Below, one piece after another: positions 1 through 9,450 of a stretch of 9,450 bases of DNA (its first letter is position 1; every line of letters starts with the position of its first letter). A model generated the notes under the pieces. That model did no database searches. It worked only from the letters and a program-made list of their open reading frames with translations, and was not told the origin of the DNA. This stretch comes from a virus (lineage: Duplodnaviria; Heunggongvirae; Uroviricota; Caudoviricetes): positions 1 through 9,450 of the IMG/VR virus record IMGVR_UViG_2711768034_000006; one strand, written 5' to 3'. A program made the position numbers and the translations under genes.

Positions 1-3
1 ACG

Positions 4-228
4 TTACGGGCTGGCAAACGGCACGATTTCGGCTGATGCCACCTCCCTGGTGCGATAACTACACAGCAGGTTCCGCCCTAGCTTGACCAGTTCCTGCTGC
101 ACGCCTGGCAGCCGGTCGCGAGCATGGTCTACCGCTTCCTGTTCAGTGGCGAAACCCTCCATAATTTCGGTTTCGGTGTAGGTGCCGTGTTCCGGGTCAA
201 AAGCAATGATATATGCGCGATAACTCAT
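4..228 (-). CDS. Hypothetical small protein (74 aa), last gene of primase operon
   Basis: ATG at 228 preceded by GAGGG Shine-Dalgarno about 8 nt upstream; 10 nt after primase stop; followed (via wrap) by intrinsic terminator; no family recognised. Confidence 0.55.
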   Translation of the reverse strand: MSYRAYIIAFDPEHGTYTETEIMEGFATEQEAVDHARDRLPGVQQELVKLGRNLLCSYRTREVASAEIVPFASP

Positions 229-238
229 GGTTTAGCCC

Positions 239-2554
239 TCAGAACGGTTTATCTTCGCCGTCACCGGCTGTTTCTGTCATCACTTCCTGTGCGTCACACA
301 GGGGCGGCATACCTGCACGCGCCATCTGCGCTTCACGTGACTGCGATTTGCCGTCAGCGTTCAGCCATTTGGCCTTATTGCGCAGAATCCAGCAGCGGCT
401 TGCCTTGCCGTGAACCTTAATCGGCCCATCAATTTGCAGCGCGCCAGCTTCTTCCATTGCGCGGCGCATGGCAGGTGTGAAGCGGCTTTCTTCACCGTCT
501 GACAGCACATTTGCAATGTCACCTTGCGTGATAACGTCAACCGGCCATGACAGCACCAGGCGGTCAGCGTTCTTCTGCGTCATCGACTTCGCAGCGCCAA
601 TCACTGACTGTTTGGCCGCGTTCATCGGCGGGCGTTCGCCAGGGTTAAAGCTGCTTATGTCGCGCTCCGCCAGGAACACAGCCACAGCGTTGATAAACTC
701 GCGGTCGTTCAGCGCAGCATAGAGCGTGGCGTAAACTTCCTGCGGGCGCGGCTCTGCTTCGTGATGCACGATGCGCCAGCGGCGGTCTGTGTCGTCAATC
801 GGCAGCGCGTTAAGGTGGTTACTGAACACCAGCCAGCGCATGGCGTTGTGTTCACGGTGCTGGCGGCCATACTTCGGGTTCACGTCACGATATTCAGCCG
901 TAACGATGCTGCGCAGTTTGTTGGTGTGACTGTAGCGGTTTTCGCTCACCCCGGCCTGAATCTCGTCAACGATGGCCAGAACGCGCCCAGCTAACTGGCC
1001 GTTGAACTGGCTATCAAGCAGGTTAGGCAGGTCCACGTTCGGTGCCACATAGCCACGCCATACGCGCGCCAGGACGCTGGCCAGCCAGTTGCGGCCTGTG
1101 CCGGTTTTGTTGGCCACGTGCAGCCAGCCATAGTGCGGAAGTTCGCCTGGCTTCTGCTCCAGGTGTGCCAGCCAATCCAGGAATTTTTCGCGCTCTATGG
1201 CATCCGGGAATAGGTAGGCTACATGGTCCAGAAACAGGCTGATGCCTGTCGTGGCTTCTTTGCGTTCGAGCGGTCGCCAGGTGTTGATTGCAGGGCGTCC
1301 ATCCGGGTCACGGCAGAAGATGCCCGCGCCAGGGTGGAATGTCCGAGTGATAACCGTTTTGCGCTGCGGGTCTTGTTGCCACAGAACGGCGGTAGGCACC
1401 GGCTTTTTGCGCTCGTCGCTCAGTGTCATTGACGCTGACGTAAGCTGGCGGAATTCCTTCCAGGTCATAAACATTGTTGTGTCATTGACGCTGGCCACCA
1501 TTTCACCGCTTGCGATCCACACCATAGATTCCAGCATTTCTTCGCGGGACATCGACGGCGGCAGGATGCTGACTGTTTCCGGCTGTTGCAGGCGGGCGTT
1601 TTCTTCCTGCTGCAAACGGCGGCGGGTTTCTTCCGCCACGTCAACCACGCCACCAGCGCGCGCATTGTTAAGCGCAGCCAGGACCGCATCAGCACCTTGC
1701 TCCTGGTGCAAATCATTAACATCTTTGCCTTCTGCCAGGTCGGACGGCAGGGTGGCAACCGCAAAGCCAGTGCGGAAAGCGTCAGATTCTTTGCCACGGT
1801 CAGGGACTATGACCGGAACAGCACCAGCGGCCTTGATGATGTCGGCAGCCTTGCGGATGTTGCCAGCACCAAAGGAAACCACGGCAGCGCAGCCGGTGAC
1901 GGCGTTCACGCTCCAGGCGTGGCCGATACCTTCCACGATGTAGGCTTTCTGGCCTTTCTCCAGCTTTCCAGCCGTAAATGTGCCATCCATAGGGCAGCCA
2001 CTGGCGTTGCGCTTCTCTCCTTTGTTTGGCCCTACGAACTGTAAGGAAACCAGGTTTCCGCTTGATGACCAAACAGGGATTGCCAGCCAGCCTTTCAGGC
2101 TTTTGCTTCCGCTCCTGATGTCCTGCGTAACAACGCGCAGGCCGTCAGGCTTGCCCCACTTGCGCATGATGTACGGGTGTTCAGCGGTCGCAGGTTCTGA
2201 CGCAGCCCAAATGTCAATCGGGTTGTGTTTGGCTTTTGGCTTCTCAATAGGTGCCTTTTCCGCCCTGGCTGTTGGGTCATTCCACTGCGCCACGTTACGC
2301 GCCAGCCAGAACAGCGTGTTTTCAGTCACCGAACCGTCAATCTTAAAGCTACCCCAGGCGGAACGCACATCCGCTTCATTGCGGTAGTTGGTTGCGCCCT
2401 GGCTCCAGTTATGGAAGTCATCGAATGACAGGCCAGCAGCCTTTGCAGCGCAGCCAATGCGTGCCCAATCACGGCGTGAACAGTCGTTCGGCAGGGATTC
2501 CAGGGCGCTAAGTGCGCGCTCCATGTTGGTGATTTGGTCGTATGCCAGACTCAT
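239..2554 (-). CDS. Primase / SF3 helicase, phage P4 alpha-like replication initiator (771 aa)
   Basis: Long ORF; N-terminal Trp-rich region; DnaG/Toprim-like EGxxxA motif (IVEGIGHAW, aa 206-214); helicase-like region with Walker B-like LAIVDEIQ (aa 524-531) and SF3 motif C-like LVFSNH (aa 575-580); ATGA start/stop overlap with upstream orf77; GGGGG Shine-Dalgarno. Confidence 0.85.
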   Translation of the reverse strand: MSLAYDQITNMERALSALESLPNDCSRRDWARIGCAAKAAGLSFDDFHNWSQGATNYRNEADVRSAWGSFKIDGSVTENTLFWLARNVAQWNDPTARAEKAPIEKPKAKHNPIDIWAASEPATAEHPYIMRKWGKPDGLRVVTQDIRSGSKSLKGWLAIPVWSSSGNLVSLQFVGPNKGEKRNASGCPMDGTFTAGKLEKGQKAYIVEGIGHAWSVNAVTGCAAVVSFGAGNIRKAADIIKAAGAVPVIVPDRGKESDAFRTGFAVATLPSDLAEGKDVNDLHQEQGADAVLAALNNARAGGVVDVAEETRRRLQQEENARLQQPETVSILPPSMSREEMLESMVWIASGEMVASVNDTTMFMTWKEFRQLTSASMTLSDERKKPVPTAVLWQQDPQRKTVITRTFHPGAGIFCRDPDGRPAINTWRPLERKEATTGISLFLDHVAYLFPDAIEREKFLDWLAHLEQKPGELPHYGWLHVANKTGTGRNWLASVLARVWRGYVAPNVDLPNLLDSQFNGQLAGRVLAIVDEIQAGVSENRYSHTNKLRSIVTAEYRDVNPKYGRQHREHNAMRWLVFSNHLNALPIDDTDRRWRIVHHEAEPRPQEVYATLYAALNDREFINAVAVFLAERDISSFNPGERPPMNAAKQSVIGAAKSMTQKNADRLVLSWPVDVITQGDIANVLSDGEESRFTPAMRRAMEEAGALQIDGPIKVHGKASRCWILRNKAKWLNADGKSQSREAQMARAGMPPLCDAQEVMTETAGDGEDKPF

Positions 2555-3188: not shown

Positions 3189-3229
3189 GCCCCCTGGATT
3201 GTTCGCGCAGTCCGGGGGTTTTCCTTTTT
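3189..3229 (+). terminator. Plus-strand intrinsic terminator-like hairpin (CCCCC..GGGGG stem) followed by TTTTCCTTTTT
   Basis: Five consecutive G-C pairs (3190-3194 with 3214-3218) then T-rich tract 3219-3229; no plus-strand CDS upstream, so it would end a short antisense RNA. Confidence 0.35.
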
Positions 3230-3252
3230 GTGGCGGTGTGCAAGCGCCACAA
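3228..3252. promoter_or_regulatory. Perfect 8-bp inverted repeat TTGTGGCG-N9-CGCCACAA at predicted transcription start of primase operon (operator candidate)
   Basis: Read directly; lies immediately downstream of the candidate -10 element; related ATTGTGGC motif recurs at 8163-8170 upstream of operon 2. Confidence 0.35.
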
Positions 3253-3257
3253 TTCGA

Positions 3258-3354: not shown

Positions 3355-3384
3355 CATAATCCCACATAATCCGGCATAATCGGT
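3355..3384. repeat. Three direct repeats of CATAATC at exact 10-bp spacing (3355, 3365, 3375)
   Basis: CATAATCCCA / CATAATCCGG / CATAATCGGT read directly; helical phasing suggests a protein-binding array; near-identical array at 8220-8249. Confidence 0.5.
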
Positions 3385-3457: not shown

Positions 3458-5734
3458 TTACGGTGCTGCTAATCCGTCATTCATCATGCTACGATTTCGG
3501 ATTCCTTGCTGCTGTTTCAGCTTCTGCGCCACCTTATTTGCCAGCGCATCTTCATTCATGCCAGGCTCGGCCTTCACGTTGATGGTGTACTGGTCGTTCG
3601 TGTTCACCGTTGTGTTGCCGGTGCGGTTAGCCAGTGCCGGTGAAGGCAAGGACGCACCAGGGGCGGCGGTCGCTGCTGGCTGGCTGCTTTCGTCTTCACC
3701 GAACGGATTGCTAAAGAAATCTTTGGTTTTCTGCCACGCACCACCAGCAACATCAGACACGGCGTTTTTAAACTCCAGTGCCTTGTTGGTCAGGTTGCCG
3801 ATGTTGTCAGACACCCACAGAATCTTATCAATCAGGAACGTGATCGGTGCGGTCACAAGCTCGATGCCAGCCGCCAGGGTCTTACCGAACGTCATCCCCA
3901 TTTTACCGGCCTTATCCAGTTCCTCGCCGCTGTATTTGACCGGTTCGGTCAGTGACGTGAACCAGTTGAAAACCGTCTTAACCGCAGCACCCACACCATC
4001 AATGACAGGTTTCAGCGGCCCCATGCGTTCATAAAGGCGGCTCAGAGCTTCGCTAAGCGGTTCCAGCCCGGATTTGATGCCTTCACCCACTCCGCCAAAG
4101 AAAGCCTTCACACCGGCCCAATGGCGGTAAATCTGATAACCTGCCAGCGCCAGGCCAGCTACGGCAGCACCCACGCCAGTGGATATGAACGCCGCACCAA
4201 CGGCACGAATGCCGGTAGCCACCGCAGGCAGGCCACGGGTGCTGGCCAGAACGGCAGATGCGTTCATGCGGGCAAACAGGCTGGACATCTGCAACACGCC
4301 ACCTTTCAGGAACGTGAACGCAAAGCCAGCGGCGAACGTCGCCACACGTAGTGCCACCAGTGCACTGGAACCAATAACCACTGCTTTGGTCACGGTAGGG
4401 TATTCGCGCGCCAGTTCGGCAACCTTGCCGATAACCGGGCCAACGGTAGCCAGAACGCCGTTGAATGCTGGCAGCAGCACTGTGCCGATCGTGACGCCCA
4501 GGTTAGACACACGGTTGTTGAAAATCTTAAGCTGTGCCGACGTTTTGGCGGTGGCTGCCTCATATTCAGCCTGCATAGAACCGGCATATTTGGTCTTGTC
4601 TTTGACCATGTCCAGATTCTTTTGGTACGTATCAAGCTGTGTCAGCATTGGTGCGATAGCGCCAATCGATTCCTTACCAAACAGTTGCGAAAGCGTTGCC
4701 GCCTGCATGTGTTTTGGCAGCTTGCTGATCTTGGACAGGATGACGCGGATTGTTTCATCGGCGTTCAGTTGCATTGATTTTGCAACCTGCTTGGATGTGA
4801 AGCCAAGCTGTTTAAACGCTTCACGCTGTGACTTCGTGGCGGATGCGCCAGCGGTCAGGGATAGCAGCAGGTTTTTAATACCGGTGGCCGCAATCTCATT
4901 CTGCACGCCCATACCGCGCAGCGTTGCACCCATCGCAGCGATAGAACCGGAAGCTGCACCAGCGACGCTGCCAAGCGGCCCGATGCGCTGCGTGATTTCC
5001 AGGATGTCTTTGGCTGATGCGGCGGTGTTGTTGCCCAGGTAGTTGATCTTGTCAGCCAGAACGTTCATCTGGTCCTGCGTCATCCCGAAGGCGGCGCGCA
5101 TCTCTGCCATTGCCTGGCCTGCCTGGTCGGCGCTGACGTCAAAAGCCACACCCATTTTGATGGCCGATTCAGCAAACTTGGTTAGTTCGCTGGTGGCGAT
5201 GCCTGATTGAGCACCAGCGGCAACAATCTTGCCGATTTCGTTGGCTGCCATCGGCATTTTGGTTGACATATCCTGGATAGCCTGGCCCATCTTAACCAGG
5301 CCGTCAGGGGTTTCGAAGTTGGCAACCTTGCGGATATCTGCCAGCGTATCTTCAAAATCCATAGCCTGTTTGATCGGTACAGCTACCGTTGCGCCAAGTG
5401 CGACAGTCCCCAGGATTCCTTCTTTGTAGCCTTGACGCTTCGCCAGGTTGCGTTCGCGGGCATCCTCCACGCGTTTCAGGCGTTCGGTGGCAGAACGAAG
5501 GCGTTCAACCTGCCCGACAACCGTTTGATAGCGGTCCTTCATGCGGGAGAATATCGCGCTATCCTGGCCATAACGCTTCATTGCTTCATTTAACTGGCGC
5601 TGTTCGCGCGACAGCTTAGAGATTGCGCTACCAATCTCGACGGTATTTTTCTTTACAGTTCCAAATGCACCACGAAGGCTGCCGGAAACGGCCCCACCAA
5701 TCGTGATTTTTGCATTTAACTTCTTGTTGGCCAT
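3458..5734 (-). CDS. Phage tail tape-measure protein-like (758 aa)
   Basis: Coiled-coil, A/G/Q-rich N-terminal half typical of tape-measure core regions; long central hydrophobic Gly/Ala-rich segment (about aa 440-540); size typical of siphovirus tape-measure proteins; ATG at 5734. Confidence 0.75.
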   Translation of the reverse strand: MANKKLNAKITIGGAVSGSLRGAFGTVKKNTVEIGSAISKLSREQRQLNEAMKRYGQDSAIFSRMKDRYQTVVGQVERLRSATERLKRVEDARERNLAKRQGYKEGILGTVALGATVAVPIKQAMDFEDTLADIRKVANFETPDGLVKMGQAIQDMSTKMPMAANEIGKIVAAGAQSGIATSELTKFAESAIKMGVAFDVSADQAGQAMAEMRAAFGMTQDQMNVLADKINYLGNNTAASAKDILEITQRIGPLGSVAGAASGSIAAMGATLRGMGVQNEIAATGIKNLLLSLTAGASATKSQREAFKQLGFTSKQVAKSMQLNADETIRVILSKISKLPKHMQAATLSQLFGKESIGAIAPMLTQLDTYQKNLDMVKDKTKYAGSMQAEYEAATAKTSAQLKIFNNRVSNLGVTIGTVLLPAFNGVLATVGPVIGKVAELAREYPTVTKAVVIGSSALVALRVATFAAGFAFTFLKGGVLQMSSLFARMNASAVLASTRGLPAVATGIRAVGAAFISTGVGAAVAGLALAGYQIYRHWAGVKAFFGGVGEGIKSGLEPLSEALSRLYERMGPLKPVIDGVGAAVKTVFNWFTSLTEPVKYSGEELDKAGKMGMTFGKTLAAGIELVTAPITFLIDKILWVSDNIGNLTNKALEFKNAVSDVAGGAWQKTKDFFSNPFGEDESSQPAATAAPGASLPSPALANRTGNTTVNTNDQYTINVKAEPGMNEDALANKVAQKLKQQQGIRNRSMMNDGLAAP

Positions 5735-5755: not shown

Positions 5756-5962
5756 TTAATTAAGTAAATTTTCTGCAAGGGTGTGTTCACCGATTGCCCG
5801 CAAGGCGGCAGCGGCCAGTTGCAGGGCGCATTCGGTGCGGTAGTCTCGCTGTTTCTGCATTCCCTCCGCTGTTTCGCAAACCATAACTTTGGGCAGGACC
5901 ATATCCACCAGTTCAGGCCAGGGGTTTGTTCCTTCCGGTTTTGTGTGAATACGGTCCAGCAT
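5756..5962 (-). CDS. Hypothetical small protein (68 aa)
   Basis: ATG with AAGGGGG Shine-Dalgarno 6-7 nt upstream; immediately upstream of tape-measure gene; no family recognised. Confidence 0.45.
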   Translation of the reverse strand: MLDRIHTKPEGTNPWPELVDMVLPKVMVCETAEGMQKQRDYRTECALQLAAAALRAIGEHTLAENLLN

Positions 5963-5971
5963 GGTGCCCCC

Positions 5972-6181
5972 TTATGCGGTTTTGCTTTCTGTTGGTTTGT
6001 CGTTGGCGGTGATGTCGCGCATCCCAAACGTGATACCTTTCCAGGACTTCATCGCGCCGCTAAGGTTCTTGATCGCCAACTTTTGTGCGTCGGTCAGTTG
6101 GCTTGCGTTGTTCTTCGTCATCTTGTCGGCTACGCCGATGACGTTCAGAACGGCTTCATAAATGTTGTTGTTGGTTGCCAT
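5972..6181 (-). CDS. Hypothetical small protein (69 aa)
   Basis: ATG at 6181, GGAG about 10 nt upstream; 9-nt gap to orf68; no family recognised. Confidence 0.45.
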   Translation of the reverse strand: MATNNNIYEAVLNVIGVADKMTKNNASQLTDAQKLAIKNLSGAMKSWKGITFGMRDITANDKPTESKTA

Positions 6182-6183
6182 TC

Positions 6184-6501
6184 TTATGCGCTCCGCACCA
6201 GGATAGCGCCGCGCTTCACTGCCTGGCGCTTGGCCCGTTCACCGGAACTGATGCGGCTGGATGGTTGCCACTTCTTGCGTTCCAGGGTCGATGCGTGGCT
6301 TTCCGCTTCGTTGCGCATGGCGCGACCGGCTTCATCGGTCATGTGTTCGAATGCGTTTAAACGGTTGCGAAGGCTGGCCAGCAGGTCGGCTGCTTCGTAG
6401 CTGATTGGGTTTTTCTCTGAAATGGTTTGGAAACGCTTTGTTTCGCTAAGGATCAAACGCGCTTCTTCTTTCATTGATTCGTACAGGTCATGGTTTTTCA
6501 T
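6184..6501 (-). CDS. Hypothetical protein (105 aa from internal ATG; ORF-track start at 6633 probably a spurious extension)
   Basis: N-terminal 44 codons of the long ORF are W/S/T/P/H-rich and not protein-like; MKNHDLYE start at 6501 gives a helical, basic-tailed protein; no clear Shine-Dalgarno at either start. Confidence 0.4.
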   Translation of the reverse strand: MKNHDLYESMKEEARLILSETKRFQTISEKNPISYEAADLLASLRNRLNAFEHMTDEAGRAMRNEAESHASTLERKKWQPSSRISSGERAKRQAVKRGAILVRSA

Positions 6502-6715
6502 AGTATTGGCCGCTAACAATAGTTGTTGATGATTAAGTGAGTGCGCGCTTTTAGGTGACAGGTGCGGCGCAACCGGTGTGGAATTAGTGGTGGTTTTGAC
6601 CGTCCAGGATGACCACCAACCTGGTTCCAGCATCCATCGTCTGAGGAACGATGAAGGTTAAATTTGGCCGGTTATTTTGGGCACAGGGAACCGGTGAAAC
6701 CTGTATTCTTGGCCA

Positions 6716-6880
6716 TTATTTGCCGTTCAGCCCGCTACTCAGAAACTTTTCAATCACCTGGCTGCGTGAAGGGCGGATGCCTGTTCTGCGTTCCAGTTTG
6801 GCTTGCTCTCTTTCGACCTGGCGCACCAGGTCAGGGGCGAGGCGTACCGTTACGTGCTGGCGTGTTTCTTGTCGTTTCAT
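6716..6880 (-). CDS. Ribbon-helix-helix (Arc/CopG-like) DNA-binding protein, 54 aa
   Basis: My own translation of the minus strand: MKRQETRQHVTVRLAPDLVRQVEREQAKLERRTGIRPSRSQVIEKFLSSGLNGK; beta-strand/helix/helix pattern resembling Arc; below the ORF-track size cutoff; ATG 3 nt after orf104 stop. Confidence 0.7.
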   Translation of the reverse strand: MKRQETRQHVTVRLAPDLVRQVEREQAKLERRTGIRPSRSQVIEKFLSSGLNGK

Positions 6881-6883
6881 GGC

Positions 6884-7198
6884 TTAATACCTGCTCATCC
6901 AGCTTTCGCGCTTCTGTTTCGGGCGCTGCTCGCGGTAGTGACTGCGCACCAGGGAGGCGAGGTAATTCACGGCGCGTTCAATCTGGTACTGCTTAAGCTC
7001 CGGGTAAGCCTTGCGAATCCATTTTTCAGCAGCGTCATCGCTGTAGATGAATCCTGACCAGCCAACCGGCTGCACTACGATGCGCGGTGTGTTTTCATCA
7101 CCGTGGCGCACATACATGGCCACACCTTCGATAGCTGCCAGGATTTCACCCGGCAGGGCAGCGCGCTCCGCTGCCGCTTTTTTGCTGCCCCACCACAT
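6884..7198 (-). CDS. Hypothetical protein (104 aa; ORF-track start at 7204 is TTG)
   Basis: ATG at 7198 sits 2 nt after the upstream TGA; AAGG Shine-Dalgarno about 7 nt upstream; no family recognised. Confidence 0.5.
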   Translation of the reverse strand: MWWGSKKAAAERAALPGEILAAIEGVAMYVRHGDENTPRIVVQPVGWSGFIYSDDAAEKWIRKAYPELKQYQIERAVNYLASLVRSHYREQRPKQKRESWMSRY

Positions 7199-7200
7199 GA

Positions 7201-8085
7201 TCAAGCCTTCCAGAACATAGTTGAGTCAGGCACCAGTGCGGATGCGTTCACCCACACAACGATTTCAACGGCACCATTCAGCACGCGGCGGGCGGTGACG
7301 CGGATTTCATCATCCAGGGCAACGGCTGCATTGCCGAAAGCGCCAATGATTGTGCTGGAAGTCTGGCCGCTGATTTCAGCGCGTACACCGTAGGCACGCA
7401 GAACGCCGTCTTGCAGTTCCAGGCCGGTGCAATCACCGCCAACAATGGCTTTAACTTCATCAAAGCGCAGGTTTTTGGCTGCAATCTTCTGCGCCACTGC
7501 GGTGAATGACGGGCTGGTAAGGGTTTCCGCTGCGCTTTCCAGGTGGTTCAGCAGCACGAAGTCAGCCAGATCGGCAATACCGCGTTCAATGGCGGTGTTG
7601 ACCGCTTCCAGCACTGTATCGTCAGCGAATTCGTGTTTCAGTTGCTGGCGGGTCAGGGTGTAGCCAACGCCGTAAGCCGGTGCGGTGTTGTGGTCGAATG
7701 CTGCAACCATGTACGGCTTGCCGCTCATGCTGATTTCTTCGCCGTCAGTAACTTTGGCGAACGCACCAGGGCGGATGACAACGAAGCGGTCAGCCACTTC
7801 GAGGCCAGTCGTTGCACCAGTCTGGCCAGTCGGCTGCGTGGTCATCGGGCCAGGAATGCGGATGATTTCAGCGCCTGCCTGTGCCACCAGCGAACGTTCA
7901 GCCAGAACAGCGTTGAAGGTGGTCTGCTTGCCACCTTTCGGGGTCAGCACGTCATTCATGGACAGGTAGCGAACTGCTGCCGGTTCCATAGGGATAAATT
8001 GAGTAATATCACCGTTGCCATCAGTGCGAACATGGCCGCCCTGGTGGTTCAACGCGTCGTTGATAAGTTGAGATAAAACGTTCAT
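7201..8085 (-). CDS. Beta-rich structural-like protein of unknown family (294 aa), first gene of operon 2
   Basis: ORF-track start at 8169 is TTG with a non-protein-like leader; ATG at 8085 has GGAG 8-9 nt upstream; A/G/T/V-rich composition like capsid or tail proteins; no motif recognised. Confidence 0.65.
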   Translation of the reverse strand: MNVLSQLINDALNHQGGHVRTDGNGDITQFIPMEPAAVRYLSMNDVLTPKGGKQTTFNAVLAERSLVAQAGAEIIRIPGPMTTQPTGQTGATTGLEVADRFVVIRPGAFAKVTDGEEISMSGKPYMVAAFDHNTAPAYGVGYTLTRQQLKHEFADDTVLEAVNTAIERGIADLADFVLLNHLESAAETLTSPSFTAVAQKIAAKNLRFDEVKAIVGGDCTGLELQDGVLRAYGVRAEISGQTSSTIIGAFGNAAVALDDEIRVTARRVLNGAVEIVVWVNASALVPDSTMFWKA

Positions 8086-8219
8086 TAAAAATGCTCCGGT
8101 TGTTGTGCAATAAATCGTCTGGAATGACTTAAAGATATACAGTAACCAGACCGAACACAATAGCCACAATGTGAGCTTTTTAATGTAAAATCAGTAACTT
8201 ATAACCCTGAATACTTGCA

Positions 8220-8249
8220 AATAACCAGGCATAATCCGGCGTAATCGAT
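8220..8249. repeat. Second copy of the phased 10-bp repeat array (AATAACCAGG / CATAATCCGG / CGTAATCGAT) upstream of operon 2
   Basis: Shares the 17-mer CATAATCCGGC[A/G]TAATCG with 3365-3381. Confidence 0.45.
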
Positions 8250-8379: not shown

Positions 8380-8570
8380 GTTTTGGAGGGGCACGCACAA
8401 CGCGAATTACGCGGGACCAATGCCCCCGCCCTGTACTGCCGCCGAGGAGGACCCTTCGATTTTTGAGGCAGGCAGGCGGCCAGGCGGTGCGCGCAAGGTC
8501 CATTATGTTAAATCGCGGAGTTTGCAGGCAGAAAGAAGCACCAGGAAGGTGCTGGCAGGCGAACGGCGCA
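8380..8570. other. GC-rich non-coding island with nested short hairpins (candidate cos/pac site or structured RNA)
   Basis: Abrupt GC-rich stretch inside an AT-rich intergenic region; inverted repeats GGGGCA/TGCCCC (8388-8426), CGCG-aatta-CGCG (8401-8413), AGCACC-aggaa-GGTGCT (8537-8553); both overlapping ORFs translate to non-protein-like sequence. Confidence 0.3.
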
Positions 8571-9065
8571 TAATCTGACATATTCCGCGCGCTTTCAGCC
8601 CGTATTCACTCAGGCTTATTGTTGCGATATGTGCAACGTTCTGGCTGTTTACTGAACAGCTACTGTTTGAACGCAAAACAAGGCTGAAAGGCTCGTTTCC
8701 TGTAGTTACATCATACTTCTGTATGTTGTACCTATTCCGGCTGCTGCTTTGGTTAGACGTGAAAAAGCGTGGTTACGAATGAGCGGACCACCACCAGCAC
8801 CCATGCCGCCCAGGCACCCCATCCGGTTACAACGCTGAATTGAGTTGTAACCGTGTTATGTTTCTGAAAAATAACAAATTTCGTGCAATCGGTTACAACG
8901 GTTACGCCAAGTTCATAAAGTTTGGAAAAAGCACTATGGGTATATAGGAATATACGAATTTCTTTTTTTTACTAATCTGTTGTAACCATTGTAACCGGAA
9001 TGGGTAAAATCATTAATATTCAGTGGCTTGCGTGGTTACAACGCCGGTTACAACACCGATTTTGC

Positions 9066-9092
9066 GTTGTAACCGTTGTAACCGTTGTAACC
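9066..9092. repeat. Three perfect tandem copies of GTTGTAACC
   Basis: Read directly. Confidence 0.9.
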
Positions 9093-9103
9093 GTAGTAGG
9101 CAT

Positions 9104-9129
9104 AAAAAAGCCCCGGCAGATGCCAGGGC
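9104..9129 (-). terminator. Intrinsic terminator ending the primase operon
   Basis: Minus-strand RNA GCCCUGGC-AUCU-GCCGGGGC (8-bp stem with one G-U, 4-nt loop) followed by UUUUUU, 25 nt after orf74 stop. Confidence 0.55.
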
Positions 9130-9151
9130 GGTCAGAACAAAAATTGTTGTA

Positions 9152-9450
9152 ACGTTACGGGCTGGCAAACGGCACGATTTCGGCTGATGCCACCTCCCTG
9201 GTGCGATAACTACACAGCAGGTTCCGCCCTAGCTTGACCAGTTCCTGCTGCACGCCTGGCAGCCGGTCGCGAGCATGGTCTACCGCTTCCTGTTCAGTGG
9301 CGAAACCCTCCATAATTTCGGTTTCGGTGTAGGTGCCGTGTTCCGGGTCAAAAGCAATGATATATGCGCGATAACTCATGGTTTAGCCCTCAGAACGGTT
9401 TATCTTCGCCGTCACCGGCTGTTTCTGTCATCACTTCCTGTGCGTCACAC
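9152..9450. repeat. Wrap-around duplicate of window positions 1-299
   Basis: Identical sequence; the ORF track lists the same 74-aa protein at 4..228 and 9155..9379. Confidence 0.9.
9155..9379 (-). CDS. Second copy of the 74-aa hypothetical protein (same locus as 4..228 via wrap-around)
   Basis: Identical translation in ORF track. Confidence 0.55.
   Translation of the reverse strand: MSYRAYIIAFDPEHGTYTETEIMEGFATEQEAVDHARDRLPGVQQELVKLGRNLLCSYRTREVASAEIVPFASP

What the first reader, a model, noticed from the sequence alone, without database searches (positions are those of the whole stretch)
6716..6880. Unlisted 54-aa ribbon-helix-helix regulator embedded in the structural-like operon
This gene falls below the ORF-track cutoff but has a clear Arc/CopG-like pattern (VTVRLAPDLVRQVEREQ...GIRPSRSQVIEKF). 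It starts 3 nt after the orf104 stop and is followed by a 214-bp gap before the next gene. It is a natural candidate to bind the inverted repeats and repeat arrays in the two promoter regions, or to act as an antitoxin-like partner.
Basis: partly seen in the sequence, partly recalled or inferred. Interest (0 to 1): 0.5.

Follow-up and report, generated by a model that had tools for sequence, protein, structure and literature searches.

The report
Small ribbon-helix-helix gene in phage satellite
The 54-codon reading frame is a real, conserved gene for a small ribbon-helix-helix DNA-binding protein that always sits third in the capsid-gene cluster of a family of 9-kb phage-satellite elements; it is an ordinary kind of protein whose target is still unknown, and it is probably not the binder of the repeat arrays or an antitoxin.

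Summary

The window protein passes no Pfam model. Relatives give weak RHH_1 hits and PHROG "Arc-like/transcriptional repressor" hits.

The window is a complete 9151-bp circular element. It is a plasmid-form relative of the "fis PICI" satellites and carries a capsid-protein homologue and a tape measure gene.

The RHH fold is well supported. A regulator role is plausible but unproven. The CATAATC/GATTATG arrays do not co-vary with the RHH: identical RHH proteins occur with different arrays, and some elements have an RHH and no arrays. The antitoxin idea is disfavoured: there is no toxin-binding tail, no toxin-like partner, and one relative has the partner with no RHH gene after it.

The 214-bp "gap" is not empty. 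It holds conserved hairpin and pseudoknot RNA-like structures with compensatory changes.

Verdict: a new small subfamily of a very common fold. Interest is modest; the context is more interesting than the gene.

The parts
6716..6880 (-). 54-aa RHH gene, stop codon included. Predicted extended strand at about residues 8-15 (HVTVRLA), helix A at 16-33, loop G34-IRP-S38, helix B at 39-51. pI 11.5.
6884..7198 (-). 104-aa gene of unknown function. It is always immediately upstream of the RHH gene, separated by 3 nt or less or overlapping it by 4-14 nt in relatives, which indicates translational coupling. Conserved motifs are ALPxE..AIE, YPEL and R..W(M/V).
7201..8085 (-). 294-aa major-capsid-protein homologue, the first gene of the triad. 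It is 51-53% identical to the C-terminal part of prohead-protease/MCP fusion proteins, and those fusions hit PHROG 'major head protein'.
6668..6704 (-). PK1, a pseudoknot-like pair of helices (ACAGG/CCTGT and CCGGTT/AACCGG) directly after the RHH stop codon. It is present only with the RHH-A cassette. Both helices change in a compensatory way in relatives.
6635..6653 (-). Hairpin HP2 (CATCGT/ACGATG) with a conserved CCUC-containing loop. The stem sequence is fully replaced in relatives while pairing is kept.
6589..6624 (-). PK2, H-type pseudoknot topology (CCAGG/CCTGG and GGTGGT/ACCACC, with an A-rich third loop), upstream of the 105-aa gene.
   Evidence: (94.8% of cells paired, 5 of 11 pairs with changes on both sides, 0/500 shuffles)
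6515..6527 (.). Palindrome AACAACTATTGTT (AACAATNATTGTT in relatives), just 5' of the start region of the 105-aa gene. It is conserved in sequence from E. coli to Serratia and Klebsiella. It is a candidate protein-binding site and one possible RHH operator; this is inference only.
6184..6501 (-). 105-aa gene downstream of the spacer. It has a helical N-terminal part and a conserved basic C-terminus (GERAKRQAVKRGAILVR). Reading it as scaffold-like is inference.
8151..8173 (-). Motif CACATTGTGGCTATTGTGTTCGG upstream of the capsid gene. It is kept in loci with the RHH-A type (inverted in L012) and is absent from the loci examined with RHH-B and from the Serratia, Klebsiella and Pseudomonas loci. 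It is a second candidate operator, with weak support.

Best explanation
The ORF is a real gene for a very basic (pI 11.5) 54-residue ribbon-helix-helix protein. By analogy with every characterised member of the fold, it should form a dimer that inserts a two-stranded beta-ribbon into the DNA major groove. The outward-facing ribbon residues would be H9, T11 and R13.

It is the third gene of a conserved triad: capsid-protein homologue, 104-aa protein, RHH. The triad forms the core of the late (morphogenesis) zone of a family of small phage-satellite elements. These occur as 'fis PICIs' in chromosomes and, as here, as 9-kb integrase-less circular plasmid forms. The RHH is made together with the capsid proteins, through translational coupling to the 104-aa gene.

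The most likely role is a sequence-specific DNA-binding regulator expressed late, which feeds back on satellite late transcription and/or acts on helper-phage genes. The delta regulator embedded in the sid-delta-psu operon of satellite P4 is a functional analogue.

Shown: the gene is real, the fold is RHH, the synteny and coupling are conserved, and the gene is independent of the CATAATC arrays. Inferred: dimerisation, DNA binding, the regulatory role and the targets. Candidate operators are the conserved palindrome at 6515-6527 and the ATTGTG-containing motif at 8151-8173.
For: Fold:
- The AF2 model has pLDDT 83, with an extended N-terminal segment and two helices.
- The sequence has alternating polar and hydrophobic strand residues, a nearly invariant G34 in the inter-helix loop and S38 at the cap of helix B.
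- Family members hit Pfam RHH_1 (best 4.7e-4; the Serratia orthologue 0.0082 across the whole model) and PHROG 4738/876 'transcriptional repressor' (6e-6, 7e-6) and 3431 'Arc-like repressor'.

Real gene:
- pN/pS is 0.27-0.30.

Core component:
- The RHH directly follows the 104-aa homologue in E. coli (two cassette types), Cronobacter, Atlantibacter, Enterobacter, Serratia, Klebsiella, Pseudomonas and two freshwater metagenome lineages.

Context:
- The neighbours are a capsid-protein homologue and a tape measure protein.
- The integrated relatives are fis PICIs (PMC10111431).

Charge: net about +7.
Against: - No DNA target has been identified.
- The window protein itself passes no Pfam or NCBIfam threshold, and Foldseek against PDB was not significant.
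- Dimerisation could not be modelled.
- No sigma-70-like promoter was found next to the gene. The one universally conserved palindrome lies inside a transcribed, structured spacer, which is an odd place for a classical operator.
- RHH proteins also act in DNA processing, partition and packaging (for example TraM, the best structural match), so a non-transcriptional role remains open.
- In one cassette type the RHH gene is swapped together with, and overlaps, a small-terminase-like gene.
Confidence: 0.55

Rival explanations
1. Packaging-specificity or DNA-processing factor. The RHH binds a site on satellite DNA and works with a small terminase (the satellite's own or the helper's) to direct packaging, as RHH accessory proteins such as TraM and TraY mark oriT for relaxases.
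For: - In E. coli L011, Salmonella plasmid L013 and metagenome locus L025, the segment 6894-6665 (RHH-A plus 51 bp) is replaced as one cassette by a 38%-identical RHH-B, a 159-aa small-terminase-like gene and orf73. The RHH-B stop codon overlaps the terS-like start codon.
- There are weak hits (E 0.005-0.025) to the YlcI/YnfO family. From my own knowledge, ylcI and ynfO lie next to the Nu1-like nohD and nohA genes in lambdoid prophages.
Against: - Most family members, including the window, have no terS-like gene.
- In Klebsiella L020 the terS-like gene is separated from the RHH by another gene.
- No pac- or cos-like site has been identified.
- The terS-like protein has its own HTH domain (AbiEi_4/HTH_17 hits).
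Confidence: 0.2
2. One reading: the RHH binds the 10-bp-phased CATAATC/GATTATG arrays (8220-8247 and 3355-3382) and the inverted repeats in the two promoter regions, and so co-regulates both operons.
For: - The arrays are real. They are phased at 10 bp and lie upstream of both operons.
- RHH proteins often bind tandem repeats cooperatively (established knowledge for omega, MetJ and CopG).
- The outward strand residues ([H/A/T]-x-[T/S]-x-R) are similar in the RHH-A, RHH-B, Serratia and Klebsiella types, so a shared site is not excluded.
Against: - L007 and L008 have identical RHH proteins but different arrays.
- L011 and L012 have an RHH and no array.
- L001 has the capsid-side array only.
- L013 has the divergent RHH-B with an identical GATTATG x3 array.
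- Overall, the replication-side array follows the plasmid-type replication module and not the RHH.
Confidence: 0.12
3. Antitoxin of a two-gene toxin-antitoxin pair with the 104-aa protein as toxin.
For: - The two genes are tightly coupled, and one of them is an RHH protein.
Against: - The RHH domain fills the whole 54 residues, which leaves no toxin-neutralising tail.
- The 104-aa protein matches no toxin or defence family in Pfam, NCBIfam, PHROGs or PADLOC.
- The pair is never found as an autonomous module. It always follows a capsid gene.
- Salmonella L024 keeps a 155-aa homologue of the 'toxin' with no RHH gene after it.
Confidence: 0.05
4. Not a gene: a chance ORF in a spacer between structural genes.
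For: The ORF is short, and the window protein hits no curated family.
Against: Purifying selection, conserved synteny down to 36-45% identity, and a confident RHH model.
Confidence: 0.02

Closest known systems
CopG / Arc / Mnt-type ribbon-helix-helix repressors (Pfam RHH_1, clan MetJ/Arc)
   Different: Helix A is about 6 residues longer (16-33) and the inter-helix loop is 2 residues longer (G-IRP-S). The window protein does not reach the RHH_1 gathering score (no hit; relatives 15-17 bits against a cutoff of 20.5). Dimerisation and DNA binding were not tested.
TraM / TraY / NikA-type RHH DNA-processing accessory proteins of plasmids
   Different: The element has no relaxase, oriT or conjugation genes and is typed non-mobilizable. 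The gene sits in a capsid operon.
Delta of satellite phage P4 (functional analogy only; my own knowledge of the P4 sid-delta-psu operon)
   Same: A small regulator encoded inside the satellite's late morphogenesis operon, next to the capsid-determining gene.
   Different: Delta is an Ogr-type zinc-finger activator, not an RHH protein, and there is no sequence or fold relation. A regulatory role for this RHH is inferred, not shown.
YlcI/YnfO family (NCBIfam NF041551) of lambdoid prophages
   Same: Weak sequence similarity over the strand and helix A (E 0.005-0.025 for 4 of 17 family members). Both are small phage-borne proteins.
   Different: The scores are far below the curated cutoff (14.6 against 30 bits). 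The function of that family is itself unknown.
Gram-negative PICIs integrated at fis ('fis PICIs', PMC10111431), as the host element
   Same: Integrated relatives (L001, L007, L011, L012, L016, L020, L022, L023) lie next to fis, in E. coli between fis and yhdJ. They carry int, alpA and a VapE/primase gene, followed by a late zone with a capsid gene. They share the late zone of the window at 70-98% nucleotide identity.
   Different: The window element is a 9151-bp circle with no integrase and no alpA, and with a PriCT_2/Toprim/DUF5906 primase-helicase and iterons. Its late zone includes a tape measure gene, which a 2025 preprint says is otherwise not found in satellites (PMC12822802).

Membership tests
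Ribbon-helix-helix (MetJ/Arc/CopG) superfamily | Beta-strand, helix, helix topology in about 45 residues | tested here: met
Ribbon-helix-helix (MetJ/Arc/CopG) superfamily | N-terminal strand with alternating outward polar and inward hydrophobic residues; glycine-containing turn between the helices; Ser/Thr/Asn cap at helix B | tested here: met
   H9-V-T-V-R13-L. G34 and S38 are nearly invariant and V42 is invariant across a 17-sequence alignment reaching 36% identity.
Ribbon-helix-helix (MetJ/Arc/CopG) superfamily | Significant match to a curated RHH sequence model (for example Pfam RHH_1, gathering score 20.5 bits) | tested here: not met
   The window protein has no Pfam hit at E<=1. Relatives hit RHH_1 at E 4.7e-4 to 0.02; the two with reported scores (15.3 and 16.5 bits) are below the cutoff. 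7 of 17 relatives hit PHROG 4738 'transcriptional repressor', best 6e-6. hhalign against single CopG and Arc sequences gave probability below 5%.
Ribbon-helix-helix (MetJ/Arc/CopG) superfamily | Obligate dimer forming a two-stranded antiparallel ribbon | not testable with these tools
Ribbon-helix-helix (MetJ/Arc/CopG) superfamily | Sequence-specific DNA binding | not testable with these tools
   Only indirect evidence: pI 11.5 and candidate sites.
Type II antitoxin (RHH class: ParD, CcdA, RelB, FitA, VapB) | C-terminal extension beyond the RHH domain that binds and neutralises the toxin | tested here: not met
   The RHH elements span residues about 8-51 of 54.
Type II antitoxin (RHH class) | Adjacent gene encodes a recognisable toxin, and the pair occurs as an autonomous two-gene module | tested here: not met
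Gram-negative PICI (host element of the gene) | Integrase plus AlpA at one end; site-specific integration with att repeats | tested here: not met
   The window is a closed 9151-bp circle (1-299 = 9152-9450) with no integrase or AlpA/HTH_17 homologue. Integrated relatives next to fis do have them.
Gram-negative PICI (host element of the gene) | Primase/replication module followed by a late zone with phage-morphogenesis genes, size about 9-20 kb | tested here: met
   PriCT_2/Toprim/DUF5906 primase-helicase at 239-2554; GTTGTAACC iterons at 8816-9105; a capsid-protein homologue and a tape measure protein.
Gram-negative PICI (host element of the gene) | Induction and packaging by a helper phage | not testable with these tools
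   No helper was identified. The RHH and the capsid protein have no tblastn match in 50,697 phage records.

The most novel reading that the evidence does not exclude
The RHH is the specificity switch of a so far uncharacterised satellite type. This would be a minimal, plasmid-or-chromosome-borne PICI relative that brings its own capsid protein and tape measure. In this reading, the RHH, made together with the satellite capsid protein, shuts off or redirects helper-phage morphogenesis or packaging genes, or marks satellite DNA for the helper terminase. It would act together with the pseudoknotted RNA that follows its stop codon to set the ratio of capsid-side to tail-side gene expression.
Probability: 0.12. 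Interest if true: 0.65.

Novelty: new member of a known kind. Interest (0 to 1): 0.3.

Why it matters
On its own the gene adds one more small, unclassified subfamily to the very large RHH superfamily. It matters mainly as a handle on its host element. That element belongs to a widespread family of about 9-kb satellites, found in 66 of 5426 complete E. coli genomes and also in Salmonella, Enterobacter, Cronobacter, Klebsiella, Serratia and Pseudomonas. The family exists both as fis-integrated PICIs and as integrase-less plasmids. Its invariant late-zone core is capsid homologue, 104-aa protein, RHH. The RHH is the only recognisable DNA-binding protein in the late zone of the window, so it is the obvious first target for working out how these elements are switched on and how they interfere with their unknown helper phage.

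Tried and rejected
- phmmer of the RHH against PDB sequences gave only polyubiquitin 'hits'. They are built from nine repeats of 2.8 bits each and are an artefact. A profile search of PDB found nothing relevant.
- Megablast and tblastn against 50,697 phage records found no match for the region, the RHH or the capsid homologue.
- A genome-contig scan with the capsid protein found nothing.
- Rfam gave no family for the whole window or for the spacer at E<=10, apart from noise.
- The simple promoter and terminator scan of 6100-7300 found nothing on the gene strand.
- The MFE z-score of the spacer is only -1.3; pseudoknots are not modelled there. The case for structure rests on covariation.
- The exact 8-mer ATTGTGGC is shared by the two promoter regions. 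With one mismatch allowed it is not above chance (9 matches against 12.8 expected), and by my own estimate two regions of this size would share some exact 8-mer by chance. The looser ATTGTK enrichment in non-coding DNA (7 against 2.2 expected, 6/1000 shuffles) is post hoc.
- PADLOC gave no defence-system match for the RHH or its immediate neighbours. The only hit was a weak one (PD-T4-6, E 0.021) for the 68-aa ORF at 5756-5962.
- No homologue of the HTH_17 gene of the Cronobacter plasmids was found in the window.

Full report
**The observation**

The minus-strand ORF 6880->6716 encodes MKRQETRQHVTVRLAPDLVRQVEREQAKLERRTGIRPSRSQVIEKFLSSGLNGK. The upstream 104-aa gene ends with TAA at 6886-6884, three bases before the ATG. 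The next gene on that strand starts at ATG 6501, so the spacer is 214 nt.

RefSeq's PGAP annotation of one relative calls a longer 149-aa form of the downstream gene. Relatives differ in that stretch by a 58-nt indel that breaks the frame, so the short form is the conserved one.

The window contains 72 ORFs of 40 aa or more, so length alone means nothing. Other evidence shows the reading frame is under selection. Against E. coli and Cronobacter relatives, pN/pS is 0.27-0.30 at pS about 0.45, with 19-20 third-position changes against 7-8 at the other positions. RefSeq already annotates the gene as a hypothetical protein (WP_000828579.1). It was 'unlisted' only because of an ORF-length cutoff.

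**What the window is**

Bases 1-299 are identical to 9152-9450, so the window is a closed 9151-bp circle. All genes are on the minus strand:
- a PriCT_2/Toprim/DUF5906 primase-helicase (239-2554) preceded by two small genes
- a 758-aa tape measure protein (3458-5734; PF10145 3.5e-39, phrog_28 1.5e-129)
- small genes of 68, 69 and 105 aa
- the RHH gene, the 104-aa gene and a 294-aa protein (7201-8085)

GTTGTAACC iterons at 8816-9105 look like an origin of replication.

The 294-aa protein is a major-capsid-protein homologue. One source names a relative 'phage major capsid protein'. Relatives with 51-53% identity over 99% of the query are fused to an HK97-type prohead protease (PF04586), and these fusions hit PHROG 'major head protein' at 2.8e-52.

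Near-identical elements occur in 66 of 5426 complete E. coli genomes. They also occur as about 9-kb 'non-mobilizable' plasmids of E. coli, Salmonella and Proteus.

In chromosomes the same late genes lie between fis and yhdJ, behind an integrase, an AlpA-type HTH gene and a VapE primase. These are the 'fis PICIs' catalogued bioinformatically in PMC10111431. The window is therefore an integrase-less plasmid form of a Gram-negative PICI-like satellite.

**The fold**

Only 18 clusters of close homologues exist among 5.8 billion proteins. A profile search of 1.84 billion representatives found just 11 hits, so this is a tiny family.

The AlphaFold model built on the family alignment has pLDDT 83. 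It shows an extended N-terminal segment followed by helices 16-33 and 39-51, which is the shape of an RHH monomer.

The sequence shows the RHH hallmarks:
- a strand of alternating outward and inward residues (H-V-T-V-R-L)
- a nearly invariant glycine (G34) in the inter-helix turn
- a nearly invariant serine (S38) capping helix B

The window protein itself hits no Pfam model and only marginal PHROG and NCBIfam models. Relatives give more. Three of 17 hit RHH_1 (best 4.7e-4). The Serratia orthologue hits it over the full model at 0.0082. Seven of 17 hit PHROG 4738 'transcriptional repressor' (6e-6), four hit the 'Arc-like repressor' PHROG and one hits a CopG-like PHROG.

I take the fold as established at about 0.9. 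Dimerisation and DNA binding follow from what is known of the superfamily and from the pI of 11.5. Neither was tested.

**Conserved context**

Wherever I could find a homologue of the capsid protein or of the RHH on a long enough contig, the order was the same: capsid homologue, then a 93-126-aa homologue of the 104-aa protein, then a 53-59-aa RHH. The RHH start is within 3 nt of the preceding stop codon or overlaps it by 4-14 nt.

This holds in Cronobacter (L007-L010), Atlantibacter (L022), Enterobacter (L023), Serratia (L016, L017), Klebsiella (L020), Pseudomonas (L018, L019), metagenome contig L025 and two freshwater metagenome lineages (L003-L006 and L028, L029).

The one exception is Salmonella L024. 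There a 155-aa homologue of the partner is followed by no RHH, although an 82-aa ORF with a weak RHH_1 hit lies upstream of the capsid gene.

The tape measure gene is not universal. It is missing in Serratia L016 and Klebsiella L020. The triad, not the tape measure, is the invariant core.

**A cassette swap**

In E. coli L011, Salmonella plasmid L013 and L025, homology to the window stops about 10 nt before the stop codon of the 104-aa gene and resumes at window position 6664. In between, the window's RHH plus 51 bp is replaced by three genes:
- a 38%-identical RHH (MSKEKKQHFSMRIS...)
- a 159-aa small-terminase-like gene, annotated as terminase small subunit by RefSeq, with AbiEi_4, DUF1441 and HTH_17 hits
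- a 73-aa gene

The RHH stop codon overlaps the terS-like start codon.

This is the main argument for a link to packaging. It is weakened by Klebsiella, where the terS-like gene sits one gene further downstream, and by the absence of terS in most elements.

**The repeat arrays**

The arrays are real. Read on the gene strand, they are CGATTATGCCGGATTATGTGGGATTATG (3382-3355) and CGATTACGCCGGATTATGCCTGGTTATT (8247-8220), each phased at 10 bp and upstream of an operon.

They do not follow the RHH:
- L007 and L008 encode identical RHH proteins, but upstream of the capsid gene L007 has (TTATTCATAG)x2-TGTTTCATAA and L008 has GATTATG-type repeats.
- L012 (RHH-A type) and L011 (RHH-B type) have no arrays.
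- L001 has only the capsid-side array.
- L013 has the divergent RHH-B with an identical GATTATG x3 array in front of the plasmid-type replication operon.

A caveat applies. The outward strand residues are similar in several types ([H/A/T]-x-[T/S]-x-R), so the RHH-B case alone is not decisive. The cases with an identical protein and a different array, or with an RHH and no array, are stronger.

I conclude the arrays are more likely bound by something else. That could be a product of the replication module, a host factor or a helper factor.

**The antitoxin idea**

**The 'gap'**

The spacer after the RHH is conserved, and it is conserved as structure. An alignment of the spacers, extended with further lineages, shows three elements.

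- PK1 (6704-6668) consists of helix ACAGG/CCTGT enclosing CCGGTT, which pairs with AACCGG downstream. Relatives have AAGGG/CCCTT, ATAGG/CCTAT, GGGG/CCCC with GCCTGTC/GACAGGC, and CGGG/CCCG with TGGTCGC/GCGACCA.
- HP2 (6653-6635) has a stem that is completely replaced in relatives (CATCGT, CTGCA, GGCGCG, CTTCC), while a CCUC-containing loop is kept.
- PK2 (6624-6589) consists of CCAGG/CCTGG enclosing GGTGGT, which pairs with ACCACC after an A-rich loop.

All the registers I wrote down pair.

For PK2, a 7-sequence MAFFT alignment gave the following:
- 94.8% of cells paired
- 5 of 11 pairs with changes on both sides
- a covariation score of 0.364 against 0.147 in shuffles (0 of 500 reached it)
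- 24-56% of cells paired when the partner strand was slid

Klebsiella and Serratia keep the same topology with unrelated helix sequences. Rfam has nothing matching.

PK1 travels with the RHH-A cassette. HP2 and PK2 are also present after orf73 in the RHH-B elements.

Between PK2 and the start of the 105-aa gene lies a palindrome that is conserved in sequence: AACAATNATTGTT, which is AACAACTATTGTT at 6515-6527 in the window.

The structures imply that the capsid-side and tail-side genes are co-transcribed, with an intercistronic regulatory or processing RNA between them. A promoter in the gap is therefore unlikely, which agrees.

**Candidate operators (inference only)**

Two non-coding sequences could be RHH targets.
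- The first is the palindrome above. It has the size and symmetry of a single RHH-dimer site. It is conserved across lineages whose RHH keeps T/S and R on the outward face of the strand, and it is absent in Pseudomonas, where that R is L.
- The second is CACATTGTGGCTATTGTGTTCGG (8173-8151) upstream of the capsid gene. It is kept in all RHH-A loci examined, is inverted in L012, and is absent from the RHH-B loci.

ATTGTK hexamers are enriched in the non-coding parts of the element (7 against 2.2 expected; 6 of 1000 shuffles). That test is post hoc, and the shared 8-mer ATTGTGGC is not above chance. These are leads for EMSA and nothing more.

**Most likely mechanism**

The RHH is a dimeric DNA-binding protein made late, in step with the satellite's capsid protein. 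It most likely acts as a transcription regulator: feedback on the satellite late operon and/or interference with helper genes. Satellite P4's delta, encoded within sid-delta-psu, is a functional precedent for a regulator embedded in a morphogenesis operon; that comparison rests on my own knowledge. Confidence is about 0.55.

The main rival is a packaging or DNA-marking role (0.2). Binding to the arrays gets 0.12, the antitoxin reading 0.05, and 'not a gene' 0.02.

**Novelty and score**

RHH proteins are ubiquitous, and a new unclassified subfamily is a new member of a known kind. Neither the literature library nor the phage collection shows this protein described.

The surrounding element is more unusual:
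- it combines a capsid-protein homologue with a tape measure gene, a combination a 2025 preprint regards as exceptional in satellites (PMC12822802)
- it has both a plasmid and a chromosomal lifestyle
- it carries the pseudoknotted spacer RNA

Interest for the finding as given is 0.3.

Noticed in passing
window 1-299 and 9152-9450: The two ends of the window are 100% identical, so the window is a complete 9151-bp circular molecule. About 9-kb relatives are deposited as non-mobilizable plasmids of E. coli, Salmonella and Proteus (for example CP054330.1, NZ_CP083588.1, NZ_CP100673.1, NZ_CP104987.1). The same late genes occur in chromosomes between fis and yhdJ with an integrase, as 'fis PICIs'.
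   Followed up: yes
window 6589-6704 (minus strand): The 214-nt spacer after the RHH gene holds two pseudoknot-like elements and a hairpin with a conserved CCUC loop. All three show compensatory changes across E. coli, Cronobacter, Atlantibacter, Enterobacter, Klebsiella and Serratia. There is no Rfam match, so this may be a new cis-regulatory or processing RNA motif.
   Followed up: partly
window 6515-6527: Palindrome AACAATNATTGTT, conserved in sequence and lying 6-15 nt before the start codon of the 105-aa gene in all enterobacterial lineages examined. A similar ACAACAATTTTTGT follows the stop codon of the 74-aa gene at 9137-9150.
   Followed up: partly
window 6665-6894, compared with L011 7166-8021 and L013: Cassette exchange: in some E. 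coli and Salmonella elements, the RHH plus 51 bp is replaced by a 38%-identical RHH, a small-terminase-like gene and a 73-aa gene. The breakpoints lie just inside the end of the 104-aa gene and at window position 6664.
   Followed up: yes
window 3458-5734 and 7201-8085: The element encodes both a tape measure protein and a divergent major-capsid-protein homologue, but no portal, terminase or tail tube. Neither the capsid protein nor the RHH has a tblastn match in 50,697 phage genomes. The tape measure gene is absent from the Serratia and Klebsiella relatives.
   Followed up: partly
window 8392-8454 (minus strand): A GC-rich non-coding block (GGGTCCTCC...GCGGGGGCATTGGTCCCGCGTAAT...TGCGTG), about 300 nt upstream of the capsid gene, is recognisably conserved in E. 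coli, Salmonella, Serratia, Klebsiella and even Pseudomonas relatives, whose proteins are only about 40% identical. It contains a GCGGG/CCCGC hairpin. There is no Rfam hit and the function is unknown (an ncRNA, a packaging site or a regulatory site).
   Followed up: no
window 8220-8247 and 3355-3382; L007 about 6640-6680: 10-bp-phased GATTATG arrays lie upstream of both operons in the plasmid forms. The integrated Cronobacter relative has a differently sequenced 10-bp array (TTATTCATAG) at the same place, and some E. coli relatives have none. The binding factor is unknown.
   Followed up: partly
window 8816-9105: Multiple direct and inverted GTTGTAACC(G) iterons lie between the 74-aa gene and the capsid operon. 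This is the likely replication origin for the PriCT_2/DUF5906 primase-helicase.
   Followed up: no
window 5756-6181: Two small genes (69 and 68 aa) lie directly upstream of the tape measure gene, in the position of tail assembly chaperones. No family hit and no frameshift signal was examined.
   Followed up: no
protein P0019: An 89-aa protein in the database fuses the first 33 residues of the RHH to the last roughly 55 residues of the tape measure protein. This is a deletion derivative of the element that has lost everything in between.
   Followed up: no
window 3228-3253 and about 3190-3225 (minus strand): Two consecutive stem-loops (TTGTGGCG/CGCCACAA, then CCCCCGGA/TCCAGGGGG) lie in the leader of the replication operon, about 150 nt before the 91-aa gene. 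They may form an attenuator or an sRNA.
   Followed up: no
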